In this document: piece after piece, positions 1-41,053 of the stretch
How the letters are laid out: every line of letters starts with the position of its first letter
Position numbering within the stretch: position 1 is the stretch's first letter
Translations under genes and position numbers: made by a program
NCBI RefSeq assembly: GCF_058153355.1
Contig: NZ_CM177019.1
Strand: one strand, 5' to 3'
DNA length: 64,000 nt
Notes under the pieces: generated by a model
The model's input: only the letters and a program-made list of their open reading frames with translations
Database searches by the model: none
Told to the model about the DNA's origin: nothing

Positions 1-717
1 TTGAACATTCATCACGGTGAAATGGTGGCTCTGCTTGGGCCGTCGGGTTCCGGCAAATCCACCCTTTTACGTCATTTAAGCGGTTTGATTACCGGCGATA
101 AATCTGCCGGTAGCCATATCGAGCTGCTGGGCCGCACAGTCCAGCGCGAAGGCCGCCTGGCCCGCGATATCCGCAAAAGCCGCGCCAACACCGGCTACAT
201 CTTCCAACAATTCAACCTGGTGAATCGCCTGAGCGTACTGGAGAACGTGCTGATTGGCGCGCTCGGCAGCACGCCATTCTGGCGCACCTGTTTTAGCTGG
301 TTCACCCGCGAGCAGAAACAGCGCGCGTTACAGGCGCTGACCCGCGTTGGCATGGTGCACTTTGCCCATCAGCGCGTTTCCACCCTCTCCGGCGGGCAAC
401 AGCAGCGTGTGGCGATTGCCCGCGCGCTGATGCAGCAGGCGAAGGTGATTCTGGCCGATGAACCCATCGCCTCGCTGGACCCGGAATCGGCGCGCATCGT
501 GATGGACACCCTGCGCGACATTAACCAGAACGACGGCATTACCGTGGTCGTCACGCTGCATCAGGTGGATTACGCCCTGCGCTATTGCGAACGCATCGTC
601 GCCCTGCGTCAGGGGCACGTCTTTTACGACGGCAGCAGCCAACAGTTTGATAACGAACGTTTTGACCATCTCTACCGCAGCATTAATCGCATCGAAGAGA
701 ACGCGAAAGCTGCCTGA
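1..717 (+). CDS. phnC: Phosphonate ABC transporter ATP-binding subunit PhnC, 5'-truncated by window edge
   Basis: Frame-1 ORF open from position 1; Walker [13 protein letters not shown] signature LSGGQQQR, Walker B ILADEP; phnD follows 24 nt later. The leading M in the track is an internal TTG codon. Confidence 0.9.
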
Positions 718-741
718 CATCCCCATCATTGAGGAAAACGA

Positions 742-1758
742 ATGAACGCTAAGATAATTGCCTCGCTGGCCTTCACCAGCATGTTCAGCCTCAGCACCCT
801 GTTAAGTCCGGCGCACGCCGAAGAGCAGGAAAAGGCGCTGAATTTCGGCATTATTTCAACGGAATCACAGCAAAACCTGAAACCGCAATGGACGCCGTTC
901 TTACAGGATATGGAGAAGAAGCTGGGCGTAAAGGTCAACGCCTTCTTTGCCCCGGACTACGCGGGCATTATCCAGGGGATGCGCTTCAATAAAGTGGATA
1001 TCGCCTGGTACGGCAATCTATCGGCGATGGAAGCGGTGGATCGCGCCAACGGTCAGGTCTTCGCCCAGACGGTCGCGGCGGATGGATCGCCGGGTTACTG
1101 GAGCGTGTTGATCGTCAACAAAGACAGTCCGATCAACAACCTGAACGATCTGCTGGCGAAGCGTAAAGATCTCACCTTTGGCAATGGCGATCCTAACTCC
1201 ACCTCTGGCTTCCTCGTCCCCGGCTACTACGTCTTCGCCAAAAACAATATCTCCGCCAGCGACTTCAAGCGCACCGTCAACGCCGGGCATGAAACCAACG
1301 CGCTGGCCGTCGCCAACAAGCAGGTGGATGTGGCGACCAACAACACCGAGAACCTCGACAAGCTGAAAACCTCCGCACCGGAGAAGCTCAAAGAACTGAA
1401 GGTGATCTGGAAATCGCCGCTGATCCCAGGCGATCCGATCGTCTGGCGCAAAAATCTTTCCGAAACCACCAAAGACAAGATCTACGACTTCTTTATGAAC
1501 TACGGCAAAACGCCGGAAGAGAAAGCGGTGCTGGAGCGCCTGGGCTGGGCCCCGTTCCGCGCCTCCAGCGACCTGCAACTGGTGCCGATTCGCCAGCTCG
1601 CGCTGTTTAAAGAGATGCAGGGCGTGAAAGGCAATAAAGGGCTGAATGAGCAGGACAAGCTGGCAAAAACCAGCGCCATTCAGGCGCAACTGGATGACCT
1701 GGACCGCCTGAACAACGCGTTAAGCGCGATGAGTTCGGTGAGTAAAGCGGTGCAGTAA
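742..1758 (+). CDS. phnD: Periplasmic phosphonate-binding protein PhnD
   Basis: 338-aa ORF with N-terminal signal peptide (…LLSPAHA/EE), GAGGAAAA RBS upstream, operon position after phnC. Confidence 0.92.
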   Translation: MNAKIIASLAFTSMFSLSTLLSPAHAEEQEKALNFGIISTESQQNLKPQWTPFLQDMEKKLGVKVNAFFAPDYAGIIQGMRFNKVDIAWYGNLSAMEAVDRANGQVFAQTVAADGSPGYWSVLIVNKDSPINNLNDLLAKRKDLTFGNGDPNSTSGFLVPGYYVFAKNNISASDFKRTVNAGHETNALAVANKQVDVATNNTENLDKLKTSAPEKLKELKVIWKSPLIPGDPIVWRKNLSETTKDKIYDFFMNYGKTPEEKAVLERLGWAPFRASSDLQLVPIRQLALFKEMQGVKGNKGLNEQDKLAKTSAIQAQLDDLDRLNNALSAMSSVSKAVQ

Positions 1759-1773
1759 TGTGCTCGATCGGTC

Positions 1774-1860
1774 CCCTCTCCCTTGAGGGAGAGGGTTAGG
1801 GTGAGGGGGGAAATACGCACGCTGATGCCCTCACCCCGGCCCTCTCCCACAGGGAGAGGG
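1774..1860. repeat. Three nested GC-rich stem-loops in the phnD-phnE intergenic region
   Basis: CCCTCTCCC-TTGA-GGGAGAGGG (about 1774-1795), GGGTGAGGG…CCCTCACCC (about 1799-1807 with 1828-1836) and CCCTCTCCC-ACA-GGGAGAGGG (about 1840-1860). Confidence 0.75.
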
Positions 1861-1884
1861 AGAAAACATTAAACGGAGCCAAAC

Positions 1885-2664
1885 ATGCAAACCATCACCA
1901 TCGCCCCACCCAAGCGCAGCTGGTTCTCGCTTCTGAGCTGGGCCATTGTTCTCGCCGTGCTGGTCGTCTCGTGGCAGGGCGCGGAAATGGCCCCGCTCAC
2001 GCTGATTAAAGACGGCGGCAACATGGCGACGTTCGCCGCCGACTTCTTCCCGCCCGATTTCAGCCAGTGGCAGGATTACCTCACCGAAATGGCCGTCACG
2101 CTGCAAATCGCCGTCTGGGGCACCGCGCTGGCAGTCGTTCTCTCCATCCCCTTCGGCCTGATGAGCGCCGAAAACCTGGTGCCGTGGTGGGTGTACCAGC
2201 CCGTGCGCCGTCTGATGGACGCCTGCCGCGCCATTAACGAAATGGTCTTCGCCATGCTGTTCGTGGTCGCCGTCGGTCTCGGGCCGTTCGCTGGCGTGCT
2301 GGCGCTGTTTATTCACACCACCGGCGTGCTTTCCAAACTGCTTTCCGAAGCGGTGGAAGCGATTGAACCCGGCCCGGTGGAAGGTATTCGCGCCACTGGT
2401 GCCAACAAGCTCGAAGAGATCCTCTACGGCGTGCTGCCGCAGGTGATGCCGCTGCTGATCTCCTACTCCCTCTATCGCTTCGAATCCAACGTCCGTTCGG
2501 CCACCGTTGTTGGCATGGTCGGCGCTGGCGGGATCGGCGTCACGCTGTGGGAAGCGATTCGCGGTTTCCAGTTCCAGCAAACCTGCGCCCTGATGGTGCT
2601 GATTATCGTCACGGTCAGCCTGCTGGATTTCCTCTCTCAACGGTTGCGTAAGCACTTTATCTGA
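1885..2664 (+). CDS. phnE: Phosphonate ABC transporter permease PhnE (intact reading frame)
   Basis: 259-aa hydrophobic ORF with GGAG RBS, uninterrupted; lies between phnD and phnF. Confidence 0.85.
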
Positions 2665-2684
2665 TAAGCGAGGCATTGATATCT

Positions 2685-3410
2685 ATGCACTTGTCTACAC
2701 ATCCGACCAGCTACCCAACACGCTATCAGGAGATAGCCGCAAAACTTGAGCAGGAGCTTCGTCAACACTACCGCTGCGGCGACTATCTTCCCGCCGAGCA
2801 GCAACTGGCAGCGCGCTTTGAGGTGAATCGCCACACCCTGCGCCGTGCCATCGACCAACTGGTGGAAAAAGGCTGGGTACAGCGCCGTCAGGGCGTCGGC
2901 GTGCTGGTGCTGATGCGCCCGTTCGATTACCCGCTCAACGCTCAGGCGCGTTTTAGCCAGAACCTGCTGGATCAGGGTAGCCATCCCACCAGCGAAAAAC
3001 TGCTGTCCGTGCTGCGCCCGGCCTCCGGTCACGTCGCTGACGCGCTGGGGATAACCGAGGGCGAGAACGTTATCCACCTGCGCACCCTGCGCCGGGTCAA
3101 CGGCGTCGCGCTCTGTTTAATCGACCACTACTTTGCGGACCTCACCCTCTGGCCGACGCTGCAACGCTTCGACAGCGGCTCGCTGCACGATTTTCTGCGT
3201 GAGCAAACGGGGATTGCGCTGCGCCGCAGCCAGACGCGGATCAGCGCCCGCCGCGCCCAGGCCAAAGAGTGCCAGCGTCTTGAAATCCCGAATATGTCGC
3301 CGCTGCTGTGCGTGCGCACCCTTAACCACCGTGACGGTGAAAGCAGCCCGGCGGAGTACTCCGTCAGCCTGACGCGCGCCGACATGATTGAATTCACTAT
3401 GGAGCACTGA
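2685..3410 (+). CDS. phnF: GntR-family transcriptional regulator PhnF
   Basis: Track ORF 2676-3410 trimmed to ATG giving 241 aa; N-terminal HTH region; operon context. Confidence 0.85.
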   Translation: MHLSTHPTSYPTRYQEIAAKLEQELRQHYRCGDYLPAEQQLAARFEVNRHTLRRAIDQLVEKGWVQRRQGVGVLVLMRPFDYPLNAQARFSQNLLDQGSHPTSEKLLSVLRPASGHVADALGITEGENVIHLRTLRRVNGVALCLIDHYFADLTLWPTLQRFDSGSLHDFLREQTGIALRRSQTRISARRAQAKECQRLEIPNMSPLLCVRTLNHRDGESSPAEYSVSLTRADMIEFTMEH

Positions 3411-3863
3411 ATGCACGCAGATACCGCGACCCGCCAGCACTGGATGTCCGTGCTGGCGCACAGCCAACCGGCTGAACTGGCTAACCGCCTTAAAGCGCTA
3501 AACATCACCGCCGACTATGACATTATCCGCGCCGCCGAAACCGGCCTGGTACAGATTCAGGCGCGGATGGGTGGCACCGGCGAACGCTTTTTTGCCGGCG
3601 ACGCCACGCTCACCCGCGCCGCCATACGCCTGACTGACGGCACGCTCGGCTACAGCTGGGTGCTGGGGCGCGACAAACAGCACGCCGAACGCTGCGCGCT
3701 GATTGACGCGCTGATGCAGCAATCTCGCCACTTTCAAAACTTATCAGAAACCCTTATTGCCCCGCTGGACGCTGACCGTATGGCACGCATTGCCGCACGC
3801 CAGGCCGAAGTGAACGCCAGTCGGGTCGACTTCTTTACGATGGTTCGCGGAGACAACGCATGA
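3411..3863 (+). CDS. phnG: C-P lyase core complex subunit PhnG
   Basis: 150-aa ORF; start abuts phnF stop; recognised PhnG sequence. Confidence 0.9.
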
Positions 3864-4444
3864 CCCTGGAAACCGCTTTTATGCTTCCCGTGCAGGATGC
3901 CCAGCACAGTTTTCGTCGCCTGTTAAAGGCCATGAGCGAGCCGGGCGTGATTGTCGCCCTACATCAACTCAAACGCGGCTGGCAGCCGCTGAATATTGCC
4001 TCTACCAGCGTATTGCTGACGCTGGCTGATAACGACACGCCGGTGTGGCTTTCCGCGCCATTAAGTAACGATATCGTCAGCCAGAGCCTGCGTTTTCATA
4101 CCAACGCCCCGCTGGTCAATCAGCCGGAACAGGCGACCTTCGCAGTGACGGATGAGGCGATTGCCAGCGAGCAGCTCAACGCCCTTTCCACCGGCACCGC
4201 CGTTGCGCCGGAAGCCGGTGCGACGTTGATTTTACAGGTCACCAGCCTGAGCGGCGGACGCATGCTGCGCCTCACCGGCGCGGGTATTGCCGAAGAACGG
4301 ATGATCGCCCCGCAACTGCCGGAGTGCATTCTGCACGAACTCACCGAGCGCCCGCACCCGTTCCCGCTCGGCATCGACCTGATCCTGACCTGCGGCGAGC
4401 GCCTGCTGGCTATTCCGCGAACCACTCATGTGGAGGTGTGCTGA
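3860..4444 (+). CDS. phnH: C-P lyase core complex subunit PhnH
   Basis: 194-aa ORF overlapping phnG stop by 4 nt (translational coupling). Confidence 0.9.
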
Positions 4445-5508
4445 TGTACGTTGCCGTGAAAGGGGGCGAGAAGGCGATCGACGCCGCCCACGCCCTGCAA
4501 GAGAGCCGACGCCGGGGCGATACCGATTTGCCTGAACTGAGCGTCGCCCAGATTGAACAGCAGCTTAATCTCGCGGTGGATCGCGTGATGACCGAAGGCG
4601 GCATTGCCGACCGCGAACTGGCCGCACTGGCGCTGAAACAGGCCAGTGGCGATAACGTTGAAGCAATTTTCCTGCTGCGCGCCTACCGCACGACGCTGGC
4701 AAAACTGGCGGTAAGCGAGCCGCTCGACACCACCGGGATGCGTCTCGAACGCCGTATCTCCGCCGTTTATAAAGACATTCCTGGCGGCCAGCTGCTTGGC
4801 CCGACCTACGACTACACCCATCGCCTGCTGGATTTCACCCTGCTGGCGAATGGCGAAGCGCCGACGCTGACCACCGCCGACAGCGAGCAAGCCCCATCGC
4901 CGCACGTTTTCAGCCTGCTGGCGCGTCAGGGGCTGGCGAAGTTTGAAGAGGATAGCGGCGCACAGCCGGATGACATCACCCGTACACCGCCGGTTTACCC
5001 TTGCTCTCGCGCCTCCCGCCTGCAACAGCTCATGCGCGGCGACGAAGGCTACTTGCTGGCGCTGGCCTACTCCACCCAGCGCGGATATGGTCGCAATCAC
5101 CCCTTCGCAGGTGAAATCCGCAGCGGCTATATCGACGTGTCGATTGTGCCAGAAGAGCTGGGATTTTCAGTAAACGTCGGCGAACTGCTGATGACCGAGT
5201 GTGAAATGGTCAACGGTTTTATCGACCCGCCGGATGAGCCGCCGCACTTCACGCGCGGCTACGGGCTGGTGTTCGGCATGAGCGAGCGCAAAGCGATGGC
5301 AATGGCGCTGGTTGACCGTGCGTTGCAGGCTCCGGAGTACGGCGAGCACGCGACAGGCCCGGCGCAGGATGAAGAGTTCGTGCTGGCGCATGCCGACAAC
5401 GTCGAAGCCGCAGGCTTTGTCTCGCACCTCAAACTCCCGCACTACGTCGATTTCCAGGCCGAGCTGGAGCTACTCAAACGTCTGCAACAGGAGCAGAACC
5501 ATGGCTAA
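4444..5508 (+). CDS. phnI: C-P lyase core complex subunit PhnI
   Basis: Track ORF 4324-5508 trimmed to the ATG overlapping the phnH stop ([13 protein letters not shown]…), giving 354 aa. Confidence 0.88.
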   Translation: MYVAVKGGEKAIDAAHALQESRRRGDTDLPELSVAQIEQQLNLAVDRVMTEGGIADRELAALALKQASGDNVEAIFLLRAYRTTLAKLAVSEPLDTTGMRLERRISAVYKDIPGGQLLGPTYDYTHRLLDFTLLANGEAPTLTTADSEQAPSPHVFSLLARQGLAKFEEDSGAQPDDITRTPPVYPCSRASRLQQLMRGDEGYLLALAYSTQRGYGRNHPFAGEIRSGYIDVSIVPEELGFSVNVGELLMTECEMVNGFIDPPDEPPHFTRGYGLVFGMSERKAMAMALVDRALQAPEYGEHATGPAQDEEFVLAHADNVEAAGFVSHLKLPHYVDFQAELELLKRLQQEQNHG

Positions 5509-6346
5509 TCTGAGCGGCTACAACTTTGCCTACCTCGACGAGCAGACCAAACGCATGATCCGCCGCGCCATCTTAAAAGCGGTGGCGATCCCCGGCTATC
5601 AGGTGCCGTTTGGCGGGCGCGAGATGCCGATGCCATACGGCTGGGGAACCGGCGGCATACAGCTTACCGCCAGCGTGATTGGCGAAAGCGACGTGTTGAA
5701 GGTGATTGACCAGGGCGCGGATGACACCACCAACGCCGTATCAATTCGCAACTTTTTCAAGCGCGTGACCGGGGTAAACACCACTGAACGTACGGATGAT
5801 GCGACGCTTATCCAGACGCGCCACCGCATCCCCGAAACGCCGCTGACCGAAGATCAGATCATTATTTTCCAGGTGCCCATCCCCGAACCGCTGCGCTTTA
5901 TCGAGCCGCGCGAAACGGAGACCCGCACTATGCACGCGCTGGAGGAGTACGGCGTGATGCAGGTGAAACTGTATGAAGATATCGCCCGCTTCGGTCATAT
6001 CGCCACCACCTACGCCTATCCGGTGAAGGTGAACGGACGCTACGTAATGGACCCATCGCCGATCCCGAAATTTGATAACCCGAAAATGGACATGATGCCC
6101 GCCCTGCAACTGTTCGGCGCGGGGCGCGAAAAGCGTATTTATGCGGTGCCGCCGTTTACCCGCGTGGAAAGCCTCGATTTCGACGATCATCCGTTCACCG
6201 TTCAGCAGTGGGATGAACCCTGCGCGATTTGCGGATCAACCCACAGCTATCTTGATGAAGTGGTGCTGGATGACGCCGGAAACCGCATGTTTGTCTGCTC
6301 CGATACCGATTATTGCCGCCAACAGAGCGAGGCGAAAAGCCAATGA
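5501..6346 (+). CDS. phnJ: C-P lyase catalytic subunit PhnJ (radical SAM-dependent)
   Basis: Track ORF trimmed to MANLSGYNFAYLDEQ… (281 aa); C-terminal Cys cluster CAICGSTHSYLDE…CSDTDYC; overlaps phnI by 8 nt. Confidence 0.9.
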   Translation: MANLSGYNFAYLDEQTKRMIRRAILKAVAIPGYQVPFGGREMPMPYGWGTGGIQLTASVIGESDVLKVIDQGADDTTNAVSIRNFFKRVTGVNTTERTDDATLIQTRHRIPETPLTEDQIIIFQVPIPEPLRFIEPRETETRTMHALEEYGVMQVKLYEDIARFGHIATTYAYPVKVNGRYVMDPSPIPKFDNPKMDMMPALQLFGAGREKRIYAVPPFTRVESLDFDDHPFTVQQWDEPCAICGSTHSYLDEVVLDDAGNRMFVCSDTDYCRQQSEAKSQ

Positions 6347-7101
6347 ATCAACCGTTACTTTCGGTCAATAACCTGACCCACCTCTACGCGCCGGGCAAAG
6401 GCTTTAGCGATGTCTCTTTTGATTTATGGCCGGGGGAAGTGCTGGGCATCGTCGGGGAATCCGGCTCCGGGAAGACCACGCTGCTGAAATCAATCTCCGC
6501 GCGCCTGACGCCGCAGCAGGGGGAGATTCGCTATGAAAACCGCTCCCTCTATGGCATGAGCGAAGCCGACCGCCGCCGTTTGCTGCGCACCGAATGGGGC
6601 GTGGTGCATCAGCATCCGCTCGACGGCCTGCGCCGTCAGGTGTCAGCAGGCGGCAATATCGGCGAACGGCTGATGGCGACCGGGGCGCGTCATTACGGCG
6701 ACATTCGCGCCACCGCGCAGAAGTGGCTGGAAGAGGTGGAGATTCCCGCCAACCGTATCGACGATCTGCCGACCACTTTTTCCGGCGGCATGCAGCAGCG
6801 TTTGCAGATTGCCCGCAACCTGGTGACGCATCCGAAGCTGGTGTTTATGGACGAGCCAACCGGCGGGCTGGATGTGTCAGTGCAGGCACGCCTGCTCGAC
6901 CTGCTGCGCGGTCTGGTGGTGGAGCTGAACCTGGCAGTGGTGATTGTCACCCATGATCTGGGTGTCGCACGCCTGTTGGCAGACCGTTTGCTGGTGATGA
7001 AACAGGGGCAAGTGGTGGAGAGTGGCTTAACCGACCGCGTGCTCGACGACCCGCATCACCCGTATACCCAGTTGCTGGTGTCATCGGTTTTGCAGAATTG
7101 A
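6343..7101 (+). CDS. phnK: ABC-type ATPase PhnK (C-P lyase accessory)
   Basis: Trimmed to MNQPLLSVNNL… (252 aa); Walker A GESGSGKTT, signature FSGGMQQR, Walker B VFMDEP. Confidence 0.9.
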   Translation: MNQPLLSVNNLTHLYAPGKGFSDVSFDLWPGEVLGIVGESGSGKTTLLKSISARLTPQQGEIRYENRSLYGMSEADRRRLLRTEWGVVHQHPLDGLRRQVSAGGNIGERLMATGARHYGDIRATAQKWLEEVEIPANRIDDLPTTFSGGMQQRLQIARNLVTHPKLVFMDEPTGGLDVSVQARLLDLLRGLVVELNLAVVIVTHDLGVARLLADRLLVMKQGQVVESGLTDRVLDDPHHPYTQLLVSSVLQN

Positions 7102-7104
7102 GCC

Positions 7105-7250
7105 GGTGCCGGATGCGGCGTAAACGCCTTATCCGGCTTTTCAGGCCGCAACGCCTGATGGCGCTTCGCTTATCAGGCCTACAAAACCATCGTAATACGT
7201 TGATATTGATTCATTTGTAGGCCGGATAAGGCGCAGCCGCCATCCGGCAA
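7105..7250. repeat. REP palindromic units between phnK and phnL
   Basis: GCCGGATGCGGCGTAAACGCCTTATCCGGC, GCCTGATGGCGCTTCGCTTATCAGGCCTAC and TAGGCCGGATAAGGCGCAGCCGCCATCCGGC in the 167-bp phnK-phnL gap. Confidence 0.85.
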
Positions 7251-7268
7251 AAACACGAAGAGGCCAAA

Positions 7269-7949
7269 ATGATCCGCGTCGAAAACGTCAGTAAAACCTT
7301 CATCCTGCACCAGCAAAACGGCGTGCGCCTGCCCGTCTTACAACGCGCCTCGCTCACCGTCAACGCGGGCGAATGCGTGGTGCTCCACGGTCACTCCGGC
7401 AGCGGCAAATCAACTCTGCTACGCTCGCTGTACGCCAACTATCTGCCCGACGAAGGGCAAATTCAGATCAAACATGGTGACGAGTGGGTAGACCTGGTCA
7501 CCGCGCCAGCGCGCAAAGTGGTGGAAATCCGCAAAACCACCGTCGGCTGGGTGAGCCAGTTTCTGCGGGTCATCCCGCGTATTTCAGCGCTGGAAGTGGT
7601 AATGCAGCCGCTGCTCGATACCGGCGTTTCGCGTGATGCCTGCGCCGCTAAAGCCGCGCGTCTGCTCACCCGCCTGAACGTGCCGGAACGTCTGTGGCAC
7701 CTGGCGCCATCGACCTTCTCCGGCGGCGAACAGCAGCGCGTCAACATCGCGCGCGGCTTTATCGTCGATTACCCCATTCTGCTGCTCGACGAACCTACTG
7801 CCTCGCTGGACGCCAAAAACAGCGCCGCGGTGGTGGAACTGATCCGCGAAGCTAAAACCCGCGGCGCAGCCATCGTCGGCATCTTCCACGACGAAGCCGT
7901 ACGCAATGACGTCGCCGACCGCCTCCACCCAATGGGAGCCTCTGCATGA
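7269..7949 (+). CDS. phnL: ABC-type ATPase PhnL (C-P lyase accessory)
   Basis: 226-aa ORF; Walker [10 protein letters not shown], signature FSGGEQQR, Walker B LLLDEP; preceded by a REP cluster. Confidence 0.9.
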
Positions 7950-9082
7950 TTATCAATAACGTCAAACTGGTGCTGGAAAACGAAGTGGTACACGGTTCGC
8001 TGGAGGTGCAGGACGGCGAAATTCGCGCCTTTGCCGAAAGCCAGAGCCGCCTGCCAGAGGCGATGGACGGCGAAGGCGGCTGGCTGCTGCCGGGGCTGAT
8101 TGAGCTGCATACCGACAACCTCGATAAATTCTTCACTCCGCGCCCAAAAGTGGACTGGCCTGCCCACTCGGCGATGAGCAGCCACGATGCGCTGATGGTG
8201 GCGAGCGGCATCACCACCGTGCTGGACGCCGTGGCGATTGGCGACGTGCGCGACGGCGGCGATCGGCTGGAGAATCTGGAAAAGATGATCAACGCCATCG
8301 AAGAGACGCAGAAACGCGGCGTCAACCGCGCCGAGCACCGCCTGCACCTGCGCTGCGAACTGCCGCATCACACTACGCTGCCGCTGTTTGAAAAACTGGT
8401 GCAGCGCGAGCCGGTCACGCTGGTGTCGCTAATGGACCACTCACCGGGCCAGCGCCAGTTCGCCAATCGCGAGAAATATCGCGAATATTATCAGGGCAAA
8501 TACTCGCTCACCGATGCGCAGATGCAGCAGTATGAAGGGGAACAACTGGCGCTTGCCGCACGCTGGTCGCAGCCGAATCGCGAAACCATCGCCGCAATGT
8601 GCCGCGCGCGACAAATTGCCCTCGCCAGCCACGATGACGCCACGCACGCGCACGTTGCCGAATCCCACCAGCTTGGCAGCGTAATCGCCGAATTTCCCAC
8701 CACGTTCGAAGCGGCGGAAGCTTCGCGCAAGCATGGCATGAATGTATTGATGGGCGCGCCGAATATTGTGCGCGGCGGTTCGCACTCCGGCAACGTGGCG
8801 GCCAGTGAACTGGCACAGCTTGGTCTGCTGGATATCCTCTCTTCCGACTACTACCCCGCCAGCCTGCTCGATGCGGCATTTCGCGTCGCCGATGACGAGA
8901 GCAACCGCTTTACGCTGCCGCAGGCGGTGAAGCTGGTGACTAAAAATCCGGCCCAGGCGCTTAATCTTCAGGATCGCGGGGTGATTGGCGAGGGCAAACG
9001 CGCCGACCTGGTGCTGGCGCATCGCAAGGGCAACCACATTCATATCGATCACGTCTGGCGTCAGGGTAAAAGGGTGTTCTGA
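7946..9082 (+). CDS. phnM: Amidohydrolase-family phosphonate pathway protein PhnM
   Basis: 378-aa ORF overlapping phnL stop by 4 nt; recognised PhnM sequence. Confidence 0.9.
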
Positions 9083-9639
9083 TGACGGGAAAACTGATTT
9101 GGTTAATGGGGGCCTCTGGCTCCGGAAAAGACAGTCTGTTGACGGAACTCCGCCAGCGGGAACAAACTCAGCTACTGGTAGCGCATCGCTACATCACGCG
9201 CGCCGCCAGCGCCGGAAGTGAAAACCATATCGCCCTGAGCGAGCAGGAGTTTTTTACCCGCGCGGGGCAGAACCTTCTGGCCTTAAGCTGGCACGCCAAC
9301 GGCCTGTATTATGGCATCGGCGTCGAGATTGACCTCTGGCTGCACGCTGGATTTGACGTGGTGGTCAACGGCTCACGCGCCCATCTACCGCAGGCGCGGG
9401 CGCGCTATCAATCGGCGCTGCTGCCCATCTGTTTACAGGTTTCGCCAGAGATCCTGCGCCAGCGCCTGGAAAACCGTGGCCGTGAAAACGCCAGTGAAAT
9501 TAACGCCCGCCTGGCGCGCGCCGCCCGCTATACTCCTCAGGATTGTCTTACGCTCAATAATGACGGCAGCCTGCGCCAGTCGGTCGACAAGCTGCTGACG
9601 CTGATTCATCAGAAGGAGAAACACCATGCCTGCTTGTGA
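9082..9639 (+). CDS. phnN: Ribose 1,5-bisphosphate phosphokinase PhnN
   Basis: 185-aa ORF with P-loop GASGSGKDS; start overlaps phnM stop. Confidence 0.9.
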
Positions 9640-10060
9640 GCTTCGCCCGGCCACGCAGTACGACACCGACGCAGTTTACGCGCTGATTTGTGAGCTAAAA
9701 CAGGCGGAGTTTGACCACCACGCGTTTCGCGTGGGGTTTAACGCCAATCTGCGCGACCCGAACATGCGCTACCATCTGGCGCTGCTGGATGGCGAAGTTG
9801 TCGGCATGATCGGCCTGCATTTGCAGTTTCATCTGCATCATGTCAACTGGATCGGCGAAATTCAGGAACTGGTGGTGATGCCGCAGGCGCGCGGTCTGAA
9901 CGTCGGCAGTAAATTACTGGCATGGGCCGAAGAAGAAGCCCGCCAGGCCGGGGCCGAAATGACCGAGCTTTCCACCAACGTCAAGCGCCACGACGCGCAC
10001 CGTTTCTATCTGCGCGAAGGCTACGAGCAGAGCCACTTCCGCTTCACCAAGGCGCTGTAA
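9626..10060 (+). CDS. phnO: GNAT-family aminoalkylphosphonate N-acetyltransferase PhnO
   Basis: 144-aa ORF overlapping phnN by 14 nt; recognised PhnO sequence. Confidence 0.88.
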
Positions 10061-10061
10061 C

Positions 10062-10820
10062 ATGAGCCTGACCCTCACACTTACTGGCACTGGCGGCGCA
10101 CAGGGCGTTCCCGCATGGGGCTGTGAGTGTGCGGCCTGCGCCAGAGCGCAGCGCTCACCGCAGTATCGCCGCCAGCCATGCAGCGGCGTCGTGAAGTTTA
10201 ACGAGGCGATCACCCTGATCGACGCCGGGCTGCACGATCTCGCCGATCGCTGGTCGCCCGGATCGTTCCAGCAGTTTTTGCTGACGCACTACCATATGGA
10301 TCACGTGCAGGGGCTGTTTCCGCTGCGCTGGGGCGTGGGCGATTCTATCCCGGTCTACGGCCCGCCGGATGAACAGGGCTGCGACGATCTGTTTAGACAT
10401 CCGGGCCTGCTTGATTTCAGCCACACGGTGGAGCCATTTGTGATGTTTGATTTGCAGGGATTACAGGTCACGCCGCTGCCGCTCAACCATTCGAAACTCA
10501 CTTTCGGCTATCTACTGGAAACGGCACATAGCCGGGTGGCGTGGCTGTCTGACACCGCAGGCCTGCCGGAAAAAACGGTGAAATTTTTACGCAATAATCA
10601 GCCGCAGGTGATGGTGATTGATTGCAGCCACCCACCGCGCGCGAATTCGCCACGCAATCACTGTGATTTAAACACCGTGCTGGCGCTGAATGAAGTTATC
10701 CGCTCGCCGCGCGTGGTTCTGACACATATCAGCCATCAGCTTGATGTGTGGCTGATGGAGAACGTACTGCCGTCAGGGTTTGAGGCGGGGTTTGATGGGA
10801 TGGAGATTGGGGTGGAGTAA
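10062..10820 (+). CDS. phnP: Metallo-beta-lactamase-fold phosphodiesterase PhnP
   Basis: 252-aa ORF with HxHxDH metal motif ([10 protein letters not shown]); last gene of the operon. Confidence 0.9.
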
Positions 10821-10854
10821 TGGGTGAGGGGCGATGCCTGCTCTAAACTCAACA

Positions 10855-11184
10855 TCACCGCCCATACTCATCTTCCATTCTCCGCTCTTCATCTTCTAGC
10901 TGCCGACGCTCCTGATCCAGCTGGCGCTGGCGATCGTCCAGCTGCCTGCGGCGATCTTCAAACTGGCGGCGGCGATCGTCATATTGTCTGCGCCGATCGT
11001 CGTTCACTTCACGCTGCCAGCCGTCGTCGCGCGAATCTTCATAGTCTCGCCCACGGTCAGGGTTATAAGCATCGTTAATCGCCTGCTGAATATTGCCAAT
11101 GGTGTCGTCGATAATATCGGCCTGGGCCGGAACGGTGGACAGCGTGAGCAGGGTGAATAAAAGAAATAGCGGAAAACGTTTCAT
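10855..11184 (-). CDS. yjdP: Small secreted low-complexity protein YjdP
   Basis: 109-aa ORF with signal peptide (…TVPAQA/D) and Asp/Arg/Gln-rich repeats (DDRRRQYDDRRRQFEDRRRQLDDRQRQL); position next to phnP as in K-12. Confidence 0.75.
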   Translation of the reverse strand: MKRFPLFLLFTLLTLSTVPAQADIIDDTIGNIQQAINDAYNPDRGRDYEDSRDDGWQREVNDDRRRQYDDRRRQFEDRRRQLDDRQRQLDQERRQLEDEERRMEDEYGR

Positions 11185-11252
11185 TAGCCAACCTCAAAAA
11201 GAAACTCTATCCACATTAGTCATTACTCATCCATGCAAGTAGTGGATGAATC

Positions 11253-11570
11253 TCAATTTTTCCGCTGCTCTATTGCCGTAATCGCCTCCACGCGTTGTTG
11301 ATGACGACCGCCTTCGTACTGCGCGCCCAGCCACGCATCCACAATCATTTTTGCCAGTTCGAGGCCAACCACTCGTGAACCAAAAGCCAGTGCAACTTCA
11401 CTGGCGTAATGCGGATAATCAGTGCGCTCTGACGACCTGGTTTCTTTATCAATCCCCTCACTCATTGACCATGAATAAAAGGCTGGCACAGCAACGCAGA
11501 ATCCTGCGGTGCCAGCGACATGACCGCCCATTGCTCCGGTACGTTTTTTAATAAGAAATACCGGTTGCAT
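11253..11570 (-). pseudogene. rpiB: Truncated ribose-5-phosphate isomerase B (rpiB) remnant
   Basis: 105-aa ORF whose C-terminal ~65 aa (…SSERTDYPHYASEVALAFGSRVVGLELAKMIVDAWLGAQYEGGRHQQRVEAITAIEQ) resembles the RpiB/LacAB C-terminus; the central Gly-rich catalytic segment is missing and the N-terminal 39 aa look unrelated or frameshifted. Full RpiB is about 149 aa. Confidence 0.55.
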
Positions 11571-11822
11571 TGATTAATTGTGCTCAGTATTTGCCGAAGT
11601 ACAATATATATAATAAATATATAAAACACCTCATATTATTTACAGAGATAATAAATTCGCGTACTTTTCCCTCTTCAGCACAAATGCCTAATAAAATGGC
11701 TCGTTCCGCTCACACTTCCACTTATTAAAATCGCAATTTCCCAATTATGATAACGCCAGCTTTAAATGACGTATTTTGCATGGATTACATATTTACGACA
11801 CAAATGATAAATGGAGATTTAT

Positions 11823-13808
11823 ATGAATAACTCTCGGTTATTCCGTTTGAGCAGGATTGTTATTGCGTTAACTGCCGCCAGCGGCATGATGGTAAATACC
11901 GCTCACGCAACAGATGAAGCGAAAGCCGCCACTCAATATACCCAACAGGTTAATCAGAATTACGCCAAATCATTACCGTTTAGCGATCGTCAGGATTTTG
12001 ACGATGCCCAGCGTGGATTTATCGCTCCGCTGCTGGATGAAGGTATTCTGCGTGATGCGAATGGCAAAATTTACTACCGCGCGGATGATTACAAATTTGA
12101 TATTAATGCCGCTGCGCCGGAAACCGTAAACCCCAGCCTGTGGCGTCAGTCGCAGATCAACGGCATTTCTGGCCTGTTCAAAGTCACCGATAAAATGTAT
12201 CAGGTGCGCGGCCAGGATATCTCTAACATTACATTCGTTGAGGGCGAGAAAGGCATTATTGTTATCGACCCACTGGTGACGCCGCCTGCCGCAAAAGCCG
12301 CACTTGACCTTTACTTCCAGCATCGTCCGCAAAAACCGATTGTTGCTGTTATTTACACCCACAGCCACGCCGACCATTATGGCGGTGTGAAAGGCATTAT
12401 CTCTGAAGCGGATGTTAAATCTGGCAAAGTGCAGGTGATCGCTCCGGCAGGCTTTATGGACGAAGCCATCAGCGAAAACGTGCTGGCGGGTAACATCATG
12501 AGCCGCCGTGCACTTTACTCTTACGGCCTGTTACTGCCGCACAACGCGCAAGGTAACGTGGGCAATGGGCTTGGCGTGACGCTGGCAACGGGCGACCCGA
12601 GCATTATTGCGCCAACCAAAACGATTGTCAGAACTGGCGAGAAGATGGTCATCGACGGTCTGGAGTTTGACTTTCTGATGACTCCGGGTAGCGAAGCTCC
12701 AGCCGAAATGCACTTCTATATTCCGGCCCTGAAAGCCCTGTGTACCGCCGAAAACGCCACGCATACCTTGCACAACTTCTACACCCTGCGCGGCGCGAAA
12801 ACCCGCGACACCAGCAAGTGGACAGAGTATCTGAACGAAACGCTGGATATGTGGGGTAACGACGCGGAAGTACTGTTTATGCCGCACACCTGGCCGGTCT
12901 GGGGCAATAAGCATATCAATGATTATATTGGTAAATATCGCGATACTATCAAATACATTCACGACCAGACCCTGCACCTGGCGAACCAGGGTTACACCAT
13001 GAATGAAATCGGCGACATGATTAAGCTGCCACCTGCGCTTGCCAATAACTGGGCCAGCCGCGGCTATTACGGTTCTGTTAGCCACAACGCCCGTGCAGTG
13101 TATAACTTCTATCTCGGCTATTATGACGGCAATCCAGCTAACCTACATCCGTACGGTCAGGTGGAGATGGGCAAACGTTACGTGAAAGCGCTGGGCGGTT
13201 CCGCCCGTGTCATCAACCTGGCGCAAGAAGCGAACAAGCAAGGGGATTACCGCTGGTCAGCAGAGTTGCTGAAACAGGTGATTGCTGCCAATCCGGGTGA
13301 CCAGGTGGCGAAGAATCTGCAAGCGAATAACTTTGAGCAGTTGGGTTATCAGGCCGAGTCCGCCACCTGGCGCGGTTTCTACCTGACCGGCGCAAAAGAG
13401 CTGCGCGAAGGGGTGCATAAGTTCAGCCACGGCACCACCGGTTCTCCGGACACCCTTCGCGGGATGTCGGTCGAAATGCTGTTCGACTTTATGGCCGTTC
13501 GCCTCGATAGCGCGAAAGCCGCAGGTAAGAATATCAGCCTGAACTTCAATATGAGCAACGGCGATAACCTCAACCTGACGCTGAACGATAGCGTGCTTAA
13601 CTACCGTAAAACGCTGCAACCTGAAGCCAACGCCTCTTTCTACATCAGCCGTGAAGATCTGCACGCCGTGCTGACCGGACAAGCCAAAATGGCCGATCTG
13701 GTGAAAACGAAGAAAGCCAAAATTATTGGCAATGGCGCGAAACTGGAAGAAATTATTGCCTGTCTGGATAATTTTGATTTGTGGGTGAATATCGTAACCC
13801 CAAATTAA
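11823..13808 (+). CDS. yjcS: Metallo-beta-lactamase-fold alkyl/aryl-sulfatase-like protein YjcS
   Basis: Track ORF trimmed to MNNSRLF… (661 aa); signal peptide; HSHADHYGG metal-binding motif; AT-rich promoter region upstream. Confidence 0.85.
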
Positions 13809-13818
13809 TGCCACTCAC

Positions 13819-13848
13819 TTTTGGGGGCGCTTAAGCCCCCAAAAGCAT
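13819..13848. terminator. Rho-independent terminator after yjcS
   Basis: TTTTGGGGGC-GCTTAA-GCCCCCAAAA hairpin 11 nt after the yjcS stop, followed by an AT-rich tract. Confidence 0.75.
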
Positions 13849-14016
13849 TTATTTTAAAAATACATACAACAAATTAATACATAAAATATATAAGTTATGA
13901 ATGCGGTGGCTGAATATAGCTATTTTTATTCATCGAGAAAATAGCCATACTGACGCCTTCAATGGATATTGATATTCACTACAGATATTGTTCGCAGCAG
14001 ACAGGATGTATTTAAT

Positions 14017-14292
14017 ATGCCAACAGTTCTCTCTCGCATGGCGATGCAACTAAAAAAAACAGCCTGGATAATTCCCGTCTTCATGGTTTCGGGATGCTCA
14101 TTATCTCCGGCAATCCCGGTGATCGGCGCTTATTATCCCTGCTGGTTTTTCTGCGCCATTGCCAGCCTTATTTTGACGCTCATCACGAGGCGAATTATTC
14201 AGCGGGCAAATATCAATCTGGCATTTGTCGGAATTATTTATACCGCCCTTTTTGCTCTCTACGCCATGCTGTTCTGGCTGGCATTTTTCTAA
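14017..14292 (+). CDS. ytcA: Small lipoprotein YtcA
   Basis: Track ORF 13969-14292 trimmed to MPTVLSR… (91 aa); lipobox-like VSGCS; two hydrophobic segments; immediately upstream of mdtN. Confidence 0.7.
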   Translation: MPTVLSRMAMQLKKTAWIIPVFMVSGCSLSPAIPVIGAYYPCWFFCAIASLILTLITRRIIQRANINLAFVGIIYTALFALYAMLFWLAFF

Positions 14293-14310
14293 TCTATTTG
14301 AGACGCGCTC

Positions 14311-15342
14311 ATGGAAAGTACGCCGAAAAAAGCTCCTCGCAGTAAATTCCCTGCTCTGTTAGTGGTTGCGTTGGCGCTGGTTGCCCTTGTTTTCGTTATC
14401 TGGCGCGTAGACAGTGCGCCATCAACTAATGACGCCTACGCGTCAGCAGATACCATTGATGTGGTGCCGGAAGTCAGCGGTCGCATTGTAGAACTGGCGG
14501 TCACCGACAACCAGGCGGTGAAACAGGGCGATTTGCTGTTCCGCATCGACCCGCGCCCGTACGAAGCCAATCTGGCGAAAGCCGAAGCCTCCCTCGCGGC
14601 GCTGGATAAGCAAATTATGCTCACCCAGCGTAGCGTTGACGCACAACAGTTTGGTGCCGACTCGGTTAATGCCACGGTAGAAAAAGCCCGTGCCGCCGCG
14701 AAACAGGCCAGTGATACATTACGCCGCACCGAGCCATTACTGAAAGAAGGTTTCGTCTCAGCGGAAGACGTTGACCGCGCAAGAACCGCACAGCGTGCGG
14801 CAGAAGCCGATCTTAACGCCGTATTGTTACAGGCGCAGTCAGCCGCCAGCGCTGTCAGCGGCGTTGATGCACTCGTTGCCCAACGTGCAGCTGTTGAAGC
14901 GGATATCGCCCTGACCAAGTTGCATCTGGAAATGGCAACCGTTCGCGCGCCGTTTGATGGCCGAGTCATTTCCCTCAGAACTTCGGTTGGGCAATTTGCT
15001 TCTGCCATGCGCCCTATTTTCACCCTAATCGACACCCGTCACTGGTACGTGATCGCCAACTTCCGCGAAACCGATCTGAAAAATATTCGCTCGGGTACAC
15101 CCGCAACGATTCGCCTGATGAGCGACAGCGGCAAAACCTTTGCAGGTAAAGTGGATTCGATTGGCTACGGCGTGCTACCGGATGACGGCGGCCTGGTACT
15201 GGGCGGCCTGCCGAAAGTGTCTCGTTCTATTAACTGGGTCCGCGTTGCCCAGCGTTTTCCGGTCAAAATCATGGTTGAAAAACCTGACCCGGAAATGTTC
15301 CGCATCGGCGCTTCGGCAGTCGCTAATCTTGAGCCGCAATAA
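14311..15342 (+). CDS. mdtN: Multidrug efflux membrane fusion protein MdtN (HlyD/EmrA family)
   Basis: 343-aa ORF with N-terminal membrane anchor and Ala/Gln-rich coiled-coil region; first gene of mdtNOP. Confidence 0.88.
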   Translation: MESTPKKAPRSKFPALLVVALALVALVFVIWRVDSAPSTNDAYASADTIDVVPEVSGRIVELAVTDNQAVKQGDLLFRIDPRPYEANLAKAEASLAALDKQIMLTQRSVDAQQFGADSVNATVEKARAAAKQASDTLRRTEPLLKEGFVSAEDVDRARTAQRAAEADLNAVLLQAQSAASAVSGVDALVAQRAAVEADIALTKLHLEMATVRAPFDGRVISLRTSVGQFASAMRPIFTLIDTRHWYVIANFRETDLKNIRSGTPATIRLMSDSGKTFAGKVDSIGYGVLPDDGGLVLGGLPKVSRSINWVRVAQRFPVKIMVEKPDPEMFRIGASAVANLEPQ

Positions 15343-17393
15343 TGAGCGCGCTCAACTCCCTGCCATTACCGGTGGTCAGGCTGCTGGCGTTCTTTCATGA
15401 AGAGTTAAGCGAGCGGCGACCAGGCCGCGTGCCGCAGACTATGCAACTCTGGGTAGGCTGCTTGCTGGTGATTCTGATCTCGATGACTTTTGAGATCCCT
15501 TTTGTGGCGTTATCACTGGCAGTGCTGTTTTACGGTATTCAGTCGAACGCGTTTTACACCAAATTTGTCGCGATCTTGTTTGTGGTCGCCACGATGCTGG
15601 AAATCGCCAGCCTGTTTTTGATCTACAAATGGTCATATGGCGAACCGTTGATCCGATTGATCATTGCCGGACCGATCCTGATGGGCTGTATGTTTTTGAT
15701 GCGCACCCATCGGTTGGGGCTGGTTTTTTTCGCCGTCGCCATTGTCGCCATTTACGGGCAAACCTTCCCCGCCATGCTCGACTATCCGGAAGTGGTCGTG
15801 CGCTTAACCCTGTGGTGTATCGTTGTCGGCCTCTACCCGACGTTATTGATGACGTTAATCGGCGTGCTGTGGTTTCCCAGCCGCGCTATCACGCAGATGC
15901 ATCAGGTGCTTAATGATCGGCTTGATGATGCCATTAGCCACCTGACGGACAGCCTCGCACCGCTACCCGAAACGCGGATTGAAAGAGAGGCGCTGGCGCT
16001 GCAAAAACTCAATGTCTTTTGCCTCGCGGACGATGCCAACTGGCGAACTCAGAGCGCATGGTGGCAAAGCTGCGTGGCAACGGTAACCTACATTTACTCG
16101 ACGCTGAATCGCTACGATCCCACCTCTTTTGCTGATTCTCAGGCAATTATTGAATTTCGGCAAAAATTAGCCTCAGAAATCAACAAACTGCAGCATGCCA
16201 TTGCCGAAGGTCAGTGCTGGCAAAGCGACTGGCGGATCACTGAAAGTGAAGCGATGGCGGCACGGGAATGTAACCTGGAGAATATCTGCCAGACATTGTT
16301 GCAACTGGGTCAGATGGACCCGAATACGCCGCCAACGCCCGCCGCCAAACCGCCATCAATGGTCGCCGATGCTTTTACCAATCCAGACTATATGCGCTAC
16401 GCGGTAAAAACGCTGCTCGCCTGTTTGATCTGTTACACCTTTTACAGCGGCGTGGACTGGGAAGGCATTCACACCTGTATGCTGACCTGCGTGATCGTCG
16501 CTAACCCCAATGTCGGTTCGTCGTACCAGAAGATGGTGTTGCGTTTTGGCGGGGCTTTTTGCGGCGCAATTCTGGCGCTGTTATTCACGTTACTGGTCAT
16601 GCCCTGGCTGGACAATATTGTCGAATTGCTATTTGTGCTGGCACCGATTTTCCTGTTGGGCGCATGGATTGCCACCAGCTCTGAACGCTCTTCTTATATC
16701 GGCACACAGATGGTGGTCACCTTCGCGCTCGCCACGCTCGAAAACGTTTTTGGCCCGGTGTACGACCTGGTGGAAATTCGCGATCGCGCCCTGGGTATCA
16801 TCATTGGTACCGTGGTGTCCGCGGTGATTTACACCTTTGTCTGGCCTGAAAGTGAAGCGCGCACACTGCCGCAAAAACTGGCTGGCGCGCTGGGTATGTT
16901 GAGTAAAGTAATGCGGATCCCACGCCAGCAGGAAGTCACGGCTCTGCGCACTTATCTGCAAATTCGTATAGGTCTGCATGCGGCGTTTAATGCCTGTGAA
17001 GAGATGTGCCAACGCGTGGCGCTGGAGCGTCAACTGGACAGCGAAGAACGCGCGTTACTGATTGAACGTTCGCAAACGGTTATTCGTCAGGGCCGCGATA
17101 TTCTTCACGCCTGGGATGCAACCTGGAACTCGGCGCAGGCGCTGGATAACGCACTACAGCCGGACAGAGCAGGCCTGTTTGCCGACGCACTGGAGAAATA
17201 CGCCGCCGGCCTGGCAAGCGCATTCAGTCGTTCTCCTCAAATAACGCTTGAAGAAACACCCGCCTCGCAGGCCATTCTGCCGACCTTATTAAAACAGGAG
17301 CAACACGTCTGCCAGCTTTTCGCCCGCTTGCCAGACTGGACAGCCCCGGCATTAACGCCCGCCACGGAACAGGCACAAGGAGCCACGCAATGA
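15342..17393 (+). CDS. mdtO: Multidrug efflux inner-membrane protein MdtO (FUSC/AaeB-like)
   Basis: 683-aa polytopic membrane ORF; start overlaps mdtN stop by 1 nt. Confidence 0.88.
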   Translation: MSALNSLPLPVVRLLAFFHEELSERRPGRVPQTMQLWVGCLLVILISMTFEIPFVALSLAVLFYGIQSNAFYTKFVAILFVVATMLEIASLFLIYKWSYGEPLIRLIIAGPILMGCMFLMRTHRLGLVFFAVAIVAIYGQTFPAMLDYPEVVVRLTLWCIVVGLYPTLLMTLIGVLWFPSRAITQMHQVLNDRLDDAISHLTDSLAPLPETRIEREALALQKLNVFCLADDANWRTQSAWWQSCVATVTYIYSTLNRYDPTSFADSQAIIEFRQKLASEINKLQHAIAEGQCWQSDWRITESEAMAARECNLENICQTLLQLGQMDPNTPPTPAAKPPSMVADAFTNPDYMRYAVKTLLACLICYTFYSGVDWEGIHTCMLTCVIVANPNVGSSYQKMVLRFGGAFCGAILALLFTLLVMPWLDNIVELLFVLAPIFLLGAWIATSSERSSYIGTQMVVTFALATLENVFGPVYDLVEIRDRALGIIIGTVVSAVIYTFVWPESEARTLPQKLAGALGMLSKVMRIPRQQEVTALRTYLQIRIGLHAAFNACEEMCQRVALERQLDSEERALLIERSQTVIRQGRDILHAWDATWNSAQALDNALQPDRAGLFADALEKYAAGLASAFSRSPQITLEETPASQAILPTLLKQEQHVCQLFARLPDWTAPALTPATEQAQGATQ

Positions 17394-18856: not shown

Positions 18857-18864
18857 AATGTCAG

Positions 18865-18898
18865 CCGCGTGATGGCTGTCACGCGGTATTTCGTTTCG
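18865..18898 (+). terminator. Hairpin downstream of mdtP (CCGCGTGA-TGGCTG-TCACGCGG) followed by T-rich tract
   Basis: Perfect 8-bp inverted repeat 9 nt after the mdtP stop, then TATTTCGTTTCG. Confidence 0.45.
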
Positions 18899-41051: not shown

Positions 41052-41053
41052 TT

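What the first reader, a model, noticed from the sequence alone, without database searches (positions are those of the whole stretch)
2286..2310. phnE is intact, with a two-copy short direct repeat at a likely slipped-strand site
phnE is an uninterrupted 259-codon permease gene here. K-12 laboratory strains are described as carrying a cryptic phnE caused by an extra 8-bp repeat unit that reverts by repeat loss. At about 2290-2305 the gene contains GCTGGCGT GCTGGCGC, two tandem 8-bp units, which would be the in-frame ON configuration. Phosphonate uptake should therefore be functional, and the site may be a phase-variation switch. That this is the same repeat as the K-12 lesion is my inference.
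Basis: partly seen in the sequence, partly recalled or inferred. Interest (0 to 1): 0.4.

Follow-up and report, generated by a model that had tools for sequence, protein, structure and literature searches.

The report
Intact phnE at known repeat switch
The phosphonate-uptake gene phnE in this Escherichia genome is intact and has two copies of the 8-bp repeat whose third copy inactivates the gene in E. coli K-12, a textbook case correctly recognised rather than a new discovery.

Summary
phnE is an uninterrupted 259-codon ORF at 1885..2664 (+). It contains GCTGGCGT (2290-2297) followed by GCTGGCGC (2298-2305).

Aligned to K-12 MG1655, the only indel is one extra GCTGGCGT at exactly this place, so K-12 has three units and the window has two. 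[quoted passage not shown]

The window's PhnE is a full-length TIGR01097 equivalog. It is residue-identical to a very widespread E. coli PhnE. phnD to phnP all have normal lengths.

The repeat is not statistically unusual by itself. It is largely a by-product of the conserved peptide AGVLAL plus codon choice.

A survey of 5,426 complete E. coli genomes adds some context:
- About 19% carry the 3-unit OFF tract, almost all on one K-12-type haplotype, including wild isolates.
- 12 records carry 4 units, and none carries 1 unit.
- One bovine isolate shows an independent 2-to-3 expansion on the E. coli B-type allele.
- No expansion was seen on the window's own haplotype.

Verdict: this is the already known ON state of the phnE repeat. 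Interest is low.

The parts
1885..2664 (+). phnE, phosphonate ABC transporter permease, intact 259 codons plus stop
   Evidence: ORF found. TIGR01097 311 bits against cutoff 216.7. PF00528 over residues 88-258. The exact protein is widespread in public assemblies.
2290..2297 (+). 8-bp repeat unit 1, GCTGGCGT. This is the unit that is duplicated in K-12 and lost in revertants.
   Evidence: Sequence read. Alignment to MG1655. PMC6469041 gives the deleted unit as GCTGGCGT at 407-414.
2298..2305 (+). 8-bp repeat unit 2, GCTGGCGC. This terminal unit variant is present once in all alleles examined.
1..717 (+). phnC, ATP-binding subunit. The 5' end is cut off by the window start.
   Evidence: ORF found. 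Synteny with the annotated EC42405 region.
742..1758 (+). phnD, periplasmic phosphonate-binding protein, 338 aa, intact
1759..1884 (.). phnD-phnE spacer holding a nested GC-rich palindromic element. It is allelic to a different REP-like spacer in K-12 and E. coli B.
   Evidence: Fold energy -71 kcal/mol, z = -6. Spacer alignment A2. Single copy in the window.
2685..10820 (+). phnF, G, H, I, J, K, L, M, N, O and P: regulator, C-P lyase and accessory genes, all with the same lengths as the annotated E. coli genes
   Evidence: ORF coordinates, compared with the PGAP annotation of EC42405.

Best explanation
This is the functional ('ON') allele of phnE, the membrane subunit of the PhnCDE phosphonate/phosphate ABC importer. 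It carries two tandem 8-bp units at the known slipped-strand site.

Mechanism. The two units share 7 identical bases at a spacing of 8. During replication the nascent or template strand can mispair by one unit. Gaining a unit gives 3 units (+8 nt), which shifts the frame after codon about 141. The product is then 189 aa and lacks the C-terminal half of the permease domain, including the EAA-type loop that contacts PhnC. The importer fails and the cell cannot use phosphonates; this is the K-12 state. Losing that unit restores the frame. With two units the gene is in frame, so uptake is predicted to work.

Origin of the repeat. It encodes part of a peptide ([12 protein letters not shown]) that is conserved far beyond Escherichia. 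It is mostly a side effect of that peptide plus GC-rich codon choice, not a purpose-built long repeat tract.

Stability. In the two-unit state the tract is comparatively stable. It is a hot spot for rare expansions rather than a demonstrated fast switch in this genome.

What is shown: the anatomy, the mapping to the K-12 lesion, the frame consequences, and the natural length polymorphism. What is inferred: transport activity here and the rate of switching here.
For: - Mapping: the only indel against MG1655 is one GCTGGCGT unit at the tract.
- Literature: K-12 is cryptic through an 8-bp duplication that is lost in Phn+ revertants (PMC3463581). The deletion is GCTGGCGT at 407-414 (PMC6469041). 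It arises by slippage between direct repeats at high frequency (PMC4759930). K-12 has three, not two, copies (PMC7566553).
- Frame: only 2 units give 259 aa. One, three and four units give 157, 189 and 165 aa.
- Protein integrity. There are 17-36 nucleotide differences from other E. coli alleles but only 0-3 amino-acid changes, which indicates purifying selection.
- Operon: phnD to phnP are intact by length.
- Natural length variation at this exact site:
  - About 1,010 of 5,394 records have 3 units.
  - 12 records have 4 units.
  - PGAP marks these as 'frameshifted'.
  - One haplotype occurs with 2, 3 and 4 units.
  - An independent 3-unit allele sits on the E. coli B-type haplotype in bovine strain 35.
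- Origin of the repeat: in 120 species-representative genomes with the same peptide, 5-6 of the 7 lag-8 matches are common and 7 of 7 is rare (1 of 120).
Against: - phnC's start and the Pho-regulated promoter lie outside the window, so expression cannot be checked.
- No phenotype can be tested with these tools.
- No 3-unit allele was found on the window's flanking haplotype. At most 16 of about 4,400 records outside the K-12-type 65-mer carry 3 units. Switching from the 2-unit state therefore looks rare in nature.
- About 7% of E. coli records carry an interrupted tract (GTG to GTA) with no obvious consequence. This argues against selection to keep the repeat perfect.
Confidence: 0.9

Rival explanations
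1. The tract is a genuine high-frequency, reversible phase-variation switch in this strain too. Populations continually generate 3-unit OFF cells and revert, as a bet-hedging device for phosphonate uptake.
For: - Iqbal et al. [quoted passage not shown] The paper itself was not readable here.
- An independent 2-to-3 expansion exists in nature on the E. coli B-type allele.
- The window has the uninterrupted 7-of-7 repeat.
Against: - Three-unit tracts are nearly absent outside one haplotype: at most 16 of about 4,400 records, and none on the window's flanks.
- Only 7 bp of homology is available for misalignment with two units, against 15 bp with three.
- The repeat is explained by the conserved peptide plus codon bias.
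- It is interrupted in at least 399 genomes.
Confidence: 0.2
2. The repeat is a meaningless coincidence of codons with no mutational consequence. The K-12 insertion is an unrelated one-off lesion.
For: - Lag-8 repeats of this quality are as frequent in the window as chance predicts: 2 observed against 3.9 expected.
- Near-repeats arise in many species from the same peptide.
Against: - The K-12 indel is exactly one repeat unit at exactly this tract.
- 2-, 3- and 4-unit alleles occur on one haplotype, and a second haplotype independently gained a unit.
- Repeated laboratory reversion by precise 8-bp loss is published.
Confidence: 0.02
3. phnE is intact, but phosphonate uptake is still non-functional in this organism because of a defect elsewhere, for example in the phnC 5' end, the promoter or Pho box, or through missense changes.
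For: - phnC is truncated by the window edge, so its start and the promoter are unseen.
- The lineage is 1-2% diverged from every complete E. coli genome.
Against: - Every phn gene visible has the normal length.
- PhnE is identical to the commonest E. coli protein.
- Substitutions are overwhelmingly synonymous, as expected for a gene in use.
Confidence: 0.07

Closest known systems
E. coli K-12 cryptic phnE, phn(EcoK0), versus functional phn(EcoB) or phn(EcoK+) (Makino et al. 1991; Iqbal et al. 2004; Guillemet & Moreau 2012)
   Same: Same gene, same position (CDS nucleotides 406-421), same unit sequence GCTGGCGT/GCTGGCGC. The window has the two-unit configuration of E. coli B and of K-12 Phn+ revertants.
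   Different: The window's allele differs from the K-12 and B alleles at 29-30 synonymous-dominated sites and 1 amino acid. Its phnD-phnE spacer holds a different palindromic element. No expanded form of this particular haplotype was found.
Classical simple-sequence-repeat contingency loci (tetranucleotide or pentanucleotide tracts in Haemophilus, Neisseria and Campylobacter phase-variable genes; comparison from general knowledge)
   Same: An intragenic tandem repeat whose unit length is not a multiple of three. Slipped-strand gain or loss of a unit toggles the reading frame on and off.
   Different: There are only 2 to 4 units, rather than many. The repeat is imperfect at its last base. It encodes a conserved transmembrane peptide and is largely explained by codon bias. 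OFF alleles are inherited as a lineage marker rather than scattered across lineages.
PhnE/PtxC family ABC permeases (TIGR01097; Pfam BPD_transp_1)
   Same: Full-length equivalog match, in the phnCDE operon context.
   Different: Nothing notable.

Membership tests
PhnE phosphonate ABC transporter permease (TIGR01097 equivalog) | Scores above the curated cutoff over the full model length | tested here: met
   311.3 bits against cutoff 216.7. Residues 16-258 align to model positions 8-251 of 252.
PhnE phosphonate ABC transporter permease (TIGR01097 equivalog) | ABC permease transmembrane domain (BPD_transp_1) uninterrupted | tested here: met
   PF00528, 91.8 bits, residues 88-258. There is no internal stop.
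PhnE phosphonate ABC transporter permease (TIGR01097 equivalog) | Encoded next to phnC (ATPase) and phnD (binding protein), upstream of phnF to phnP | tested here: met
   Gene order phnC'-D-E-F-G-H-I-J-K-L-M-N-O-P, with lengths matching the PGAP annotation of EC42405.
PhnE phosphonate ABC transporter permease (TIGR01097 equivalog) | Transports phosphonate or phosphate in vivo | not testable with these tools
   Needs growth or uptake assays.
phnE 8-bp repeat ON/OFF site of E. coli (Makino 1991; Iqbal 2004) | Tandem GCTGGCGT/GCTGGCGC units at about nucleotide 406 of phnE, homologous to the K-12 tract | tested here: met
   Alignment A1 shows a single 8-bp indel at the tract. The literature gives the unit and the position.
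phnE 8-bp repeat ON/OFF site of E. coli (Makino 1991; Iqbal 2004) | Two units in frame (ON); three units frameshifted (OFF) | tested here: met
   In-silico variants: 2 units give 259 aa and 3 units give 189 aa. PGAP flags 3- and 4-unit alleles as 'frameshifted'.
phnE 8-bp repeat ON/OFF site of E. coli (Makino 1991; Iqbal 2004) | Unit number varies among otherwise identical alleles, showing that switching actually happens | tested here: met
   The K-type haplotype is seen with 2 units (ETEC1732), 3 units (GD33 and others) and 4 units (VR50 and others). The B-type haplotype is seen with 2 units (E. coli B) and 3 units (strain 35). In each case there are 0 other differences.
phnE 8-bp repeat ON/OFF site of E. 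coli (Makino 1991; Iqbal 2004) | Unit number varies on the window's own haplotype or within this strain | tested here: not met
   No 3-unit tract has the window's flanks among 5,394 records. Within-strain variation is not testable here.
Simple-sequence-repeat contingency locus (evolved phase-variation switch) | Long tract of many identical units giving a high switching rate | tested here: not met
   There are two units, with 15 nt of perfect periodicity.
Simple-sequence-repeat contingency locus (evolved phase-variation switch) | Repeat maintained beyond what coding constraints explain | tested here: not met
   The peptide is conserved across phyla, and 5-6 of 7 lag-8 matches arise from codon bias alone. 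At least 399 E. coli records carry a synonymous interruption.
Simple-sequence-repeat contingency locus (evolved phase-variation switch) | Measured reversible switching at high frequency | not testable with these tools
   Reported for K-12 in Iqbal 2004. Only the title was seen; the paper is not held.

The most novel reading that the evidence does not exclude
The phnE tract may be a naturally segregating, lineage-structured ON/OFF polymorphism in wild E. coli, not a K-12 laboratory curiosity.

Shown here:
- A single haplotype carried by roughly a fifth of complete genomes, from human, poultry, dog, cattle, water and food isolates, sits almost entirely in the 3-unit OFF state.
- That haplotype has occasional 4-unit and 2-unit derivatives.
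- At least one independent expansion occurred on another haplotype.

The persistence of a supposedly unstable OFF tract suggests that loss of PhnCDE uptake is favoured in that lineage, for example by excluding toxic phosphonates. On this reading, genomes like the window's represent the stable ancestral ON state.

The distribution is shown. Selective maintenance of OFF is speculation.
Probability: 0.25. Interest if true: 0.45.

Novelty: already known. Interest (0 to 1): 0.15.

Why it matters
For this genome, it means the annotation should call phnE a functional gene, and the organism is predicted to import phosphonates (and phosphate) through PhnCDE, unlike K-12 laboratory strains.

More generally, the site is a well-documented example of an accidental short repeat in a conserved coding segment acting as a frameshift hot spot.

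The only new element is the census made here. OFF (3-unit) and 4-unit alleles are common in sequenced natural isolates, but they are tied to essentially one haplotype. This qualifies the usual statements that the lesion is a K-12 peculiarity. It also cautions against assuming that every two-unit allele is a fast switch.

Tried and rejected
- Primary papers: attempts to read Iqbal 2004 (PMC515159), Guillemet & Moreau 2012 (PMC3256660) and Makino 1991 (PMC207835) failed because none is held. Switching frequencies therefore could not be quoted from source.
- 1-unit alleles: a search found none.
- 3-unit alleles on other flanks: none on the window's own flanks or on L124-type flanks.
- Rfam: a scan of 1-12000 found nothing.
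The exact-protein look-up returned only accession numbers. The organism remains 'Escherichia, 98-99% to the nearest complete E. coli'.
- Pure chance repeat: considered and rejected (see rivals).
- Sequencing or assembly artefact as the cause of the 3- and 4-unit calls: considered unlikely. The differences are exact whole-unit indels, recur in hundreds of independent assemblies, and match the experimentally characterised K-12 state. A single-record case such as strain 35 cannot be verified without reads.

Full report
**1. The observation**

The window reads ...GGGCCGTTC GCTGGCGT GCTGGCGC TGTTTATT... Unit 1 is at 2290-2297 and unit 2 at 2298-2305.

The enclosing ORF, 1885..2664 on the + strand, is 259 codons with an ATG start. 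The tract starts at CDS nucleotide 406, codon 136, in frame. It spells part of the peptide [12 protein letters not shown].

The perfectly periodic stretch is 15 nt: GCTGGCG, T, GCTGGCG.

As a bare sequence feature it is not exceptional. Runs of at least 7 matches at lag 8 occur twice in the whole window, against 3.9 +/- 2.2 expected. The chance of one in a 780-nt gene of this composition is about 5%.

**2. Does the K-12 lesion map here?**

Yes. I fetched NC_000913.3 4321000-4325000, where phnE is annotated as the pseudogene phnE1, b4583. Aligning it to the window shows a single indel in the region: one extra GCTGGCGT. MG1655 therefore reads GCTGGCGT GCTGGCGT GCTGGCGC where the window reads GCTGGCGT GCTGGCGC.

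The literature describes the same thing:
- A revertant with [quoted passage not shown] (PMC6469041).
[quoted passage not shown] The paper that named it phase variation is Iqbal et al. 2004, J Bacteriol 186:6118. It is cited in those papers, but neither it, Makino 1991 nor Guillemet & Moreau 2012 could be read here.

**3. Is the permease otherwise intact?**

- The protein scores 311 bits against the NCBIfam equivalog TIGR01097 PhnE (cutoff 216.7), over essentially the whole model.
- It has a complete BPD_transp_1 domain at residues 88-258.
- Its exact amino-acid sequence is extremely common in public assemblies, indexed in 32,613 blocks.
- Its DNA differs from other E. coli alleles at 17-36 positions, but these cause only 0-3 amino-acid changes (1 against E. 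coli B and K-12). This is the signature of purifying selection on a working gene.
- Building the gene with 0, 1, 2, 3 or 4 units gives ORFs of 181, 157, 259, 189 and 165 aa, so only two units are in frame.
- The 3-unit product loses everything after about residue 141. By my reading of the sequence against the general EAA-x3-G-x9-I-x-LP consensus (established knowledge of ABC permeases; inference here), this includes the EAA-type cytoplasmic loop [20 protein letters not shown] at about residues 166-185.

**4. Surroundings**

The window opens inside phnC (1-717). It continues with phnD (742-1758, 338 aa), phnE, phnF (2685-3410) and phnG to phnP (3411-10820). All have the lengths annotated in a syntenic E. 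coli genome.

The phnC start and the promoter are outside the window, so expression cannot be assessed. No Rfam family matches in 1-12000.

The window is not K-12 and not any lineage among the complete RefSeq E. coli genomes. The best identity over 1-20000 is 98.0%, and over 40000-60000 it is 98.9%.

**5. How the tract behaves in nature**

I used short queries carrying defined unit numbers against 5,426 complete E. coli genomes.

- **3 units:** 994 records match the K-12 65-mer exactly and 16 more at 95-99% identity. That is about 1,010 of 5,394 records, or 19%. A further 4,384 records align with an 8-nt gap and so have 2 units.
- **Who carries 3 units:** not only laboratory K-12 derivatives. 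Carriers include isolates from humans, chickens, ducks, dogs, cucumber, river water and bovine mastitis.
- **4 units:** 12 records have four units. These are VR50, EH10-18-47, EF7-18-51, FDAARGOS_1248, YZ22PE244, LR-71-1, three SW0716 isolates, 200112, TB4019 and TB4328.
- **1 unit:** none found.
- **Annotation:** PGAP marks the 3- and 4-unit genes as "frameshifted" pseudogenes.
- **One haplotype:** after normalising the tract, all sampled 3- and 4-unit natural alleles are identical to one another and 1 nt from MG1655.
- **2 units on that haplotype:** the two-unit state is rare there. Five records were found: one MG1655 derivative, pig ETEC1732 and ETEC1734, and hospital Z217-2 and Z217-4. The next nearest ON alleles are 99.1% identical.
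- **Independent expansion:** bovine strain 35 has three units on an allele with 0 differences from the E. coli B ON allele, which is 16-17 nt from the K-type.
- **Other flanks:** no 3-unit tract exists on the window's own flanks or on the L124-type flanks.

The site is therefore a real recurrent indel hot spot, with changes in both directions. However, expansion from two units is rare in the sampled population: at most 16 of about 4,400 records outside the K-12-type 65-mer.

**6. Why the repeat exists**

A peptide-degenerate DNA pattern for [12 protein letters not shown] found at least 120 matches in species-representative genomes from Proteobacteria, Cyanobacteria and others. The amino acids are therefore strongly constrained.

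In those 120 sites the number of lag-8 matches, out of 7, peaks at 5, and 23 sites have 6. This is because GCC GGC GTG CTG GCG is the favoured GC-rich spelling. Only one site (a Stutzerimonas stutzeri genome) reaches 7 of 7. E. coli reaches 7 of 7 by using GCT for the first alanine.

Within E. coli, at least 399 records carry a synonymous GTG-to-GTA change that interrupts the repeat.

The tract thus looks like an accidental proto-repeat in a conserved coding segment. It does not look like a structure maintained for switching.

**7. Mechanism and rivals**

Best explanation (confidence about 0.9): this is the ON allele at the known slipped-strand site.
- Replication slippage across 7 bp of homology can add a unit (OFF).
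- With three units, 15 bp of homology makes loss or further gain easier.
- ON restores PhnCDE-mediated uptake.

A fast reversible switch in this very strain is possible but not supported by the census (about 0.2). A meaningless coincidence is refuted. A hidden defect elsewhere in the pathway cannot be excluded but has no support (about 0.07).

One thing is unexplained. On the K-type haplotype the supposedly unstable 3-unit state outnumbers the 2-unit state by about 200 to 1. Either natural switching is much slower than laboratory selection experiments suggest, or OFF is favoured in that lineage.

**8. Comparison with known systems and novelty**

The feature is a member of the described phnE 8-bp repeat site. 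It has the same gene, position, unit and frame logic.

It works like a simple-sequence contingency locus, but it fails two defining features of that class. It does not have a long tract, and the repeat is not maintained beyond what coding constraint explains.

The modest addition here is the census of tract states in natural genomes.

Overall interest is 0.15.

Noticed in passing
window 1759-1884: The phnD-phnE spacer (126 nt) holds a nested GC-rich palindrome (CCCTCTCCC..GGGAGAGGG and GGGTGAGGGG..CCCTCACCCC). It folds at -71 kcal/mol, z = -6. EC42405 shares it, and one assembly (L123) has a 60-nt single-stem form. K-12, E. coli B and L126 instead have an unrelated 105-nt REP-like spacer. Two different extragenic palindromic elements are therefore allelic at this spot.
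   Followed up: partly
window 1-20000 and 40000-60000: The window is only 98.0% and 98.9% identical to the nearest of 5,426 complete RefSeq E. coli genomes. It therefore comes from an Escherichia lineage not represented there. The organism was not identified.
   Followed up: partly
E. coli genomes: L130 (VR50), L132 (TB4019), L133 (SW071611), tract at phnE nt 406: Twelve complete-genome records carry a four-unit tract (796-nt phnE), all on the K-12-type haplotype. No one-unit allele was found.
   Followed up: yes
L135 (E. coli strain 35, bovine, NZ_CP172867.1), phnE 1114-1901: A three-unit, frameshifted phnE sits on an allele otherwise identical to the E. coli B ON allele. This is an independent expansion outside the K-12-type haplotype.
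   Followed up: yes
L122 (EC42405) and L123, tract at phnE nt 406-421: An interrupted tract GCTGGCGTACTGGCGC (synonymous Val GTG to GTA) is present in at least 399 complete E. coli records. It is presumably a more slip-resistant ON allele.
   Followed up: partly
E. coli genomes, K-12-type phnE haplotype: Unexplained: about 1,000 records are 3-unit, 12 are 4-unit and only about 5 are 2-unit on this haplotype, even though the 3-unit tract is reported to revert readily. Either natural switching is slow or OFF is favoured in that lineage.
   Followed up: partly
window 1831-2676, minus strand: A 281-aa ORF lies antisense to the whole of phnE. It is probably a spurious stop-free antisense frame of a GC-rich gene.
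   Followed up: no
E. coli genome search results: Five phnE matches lie on plasmids rather than chromosomes.
   Followed up: no
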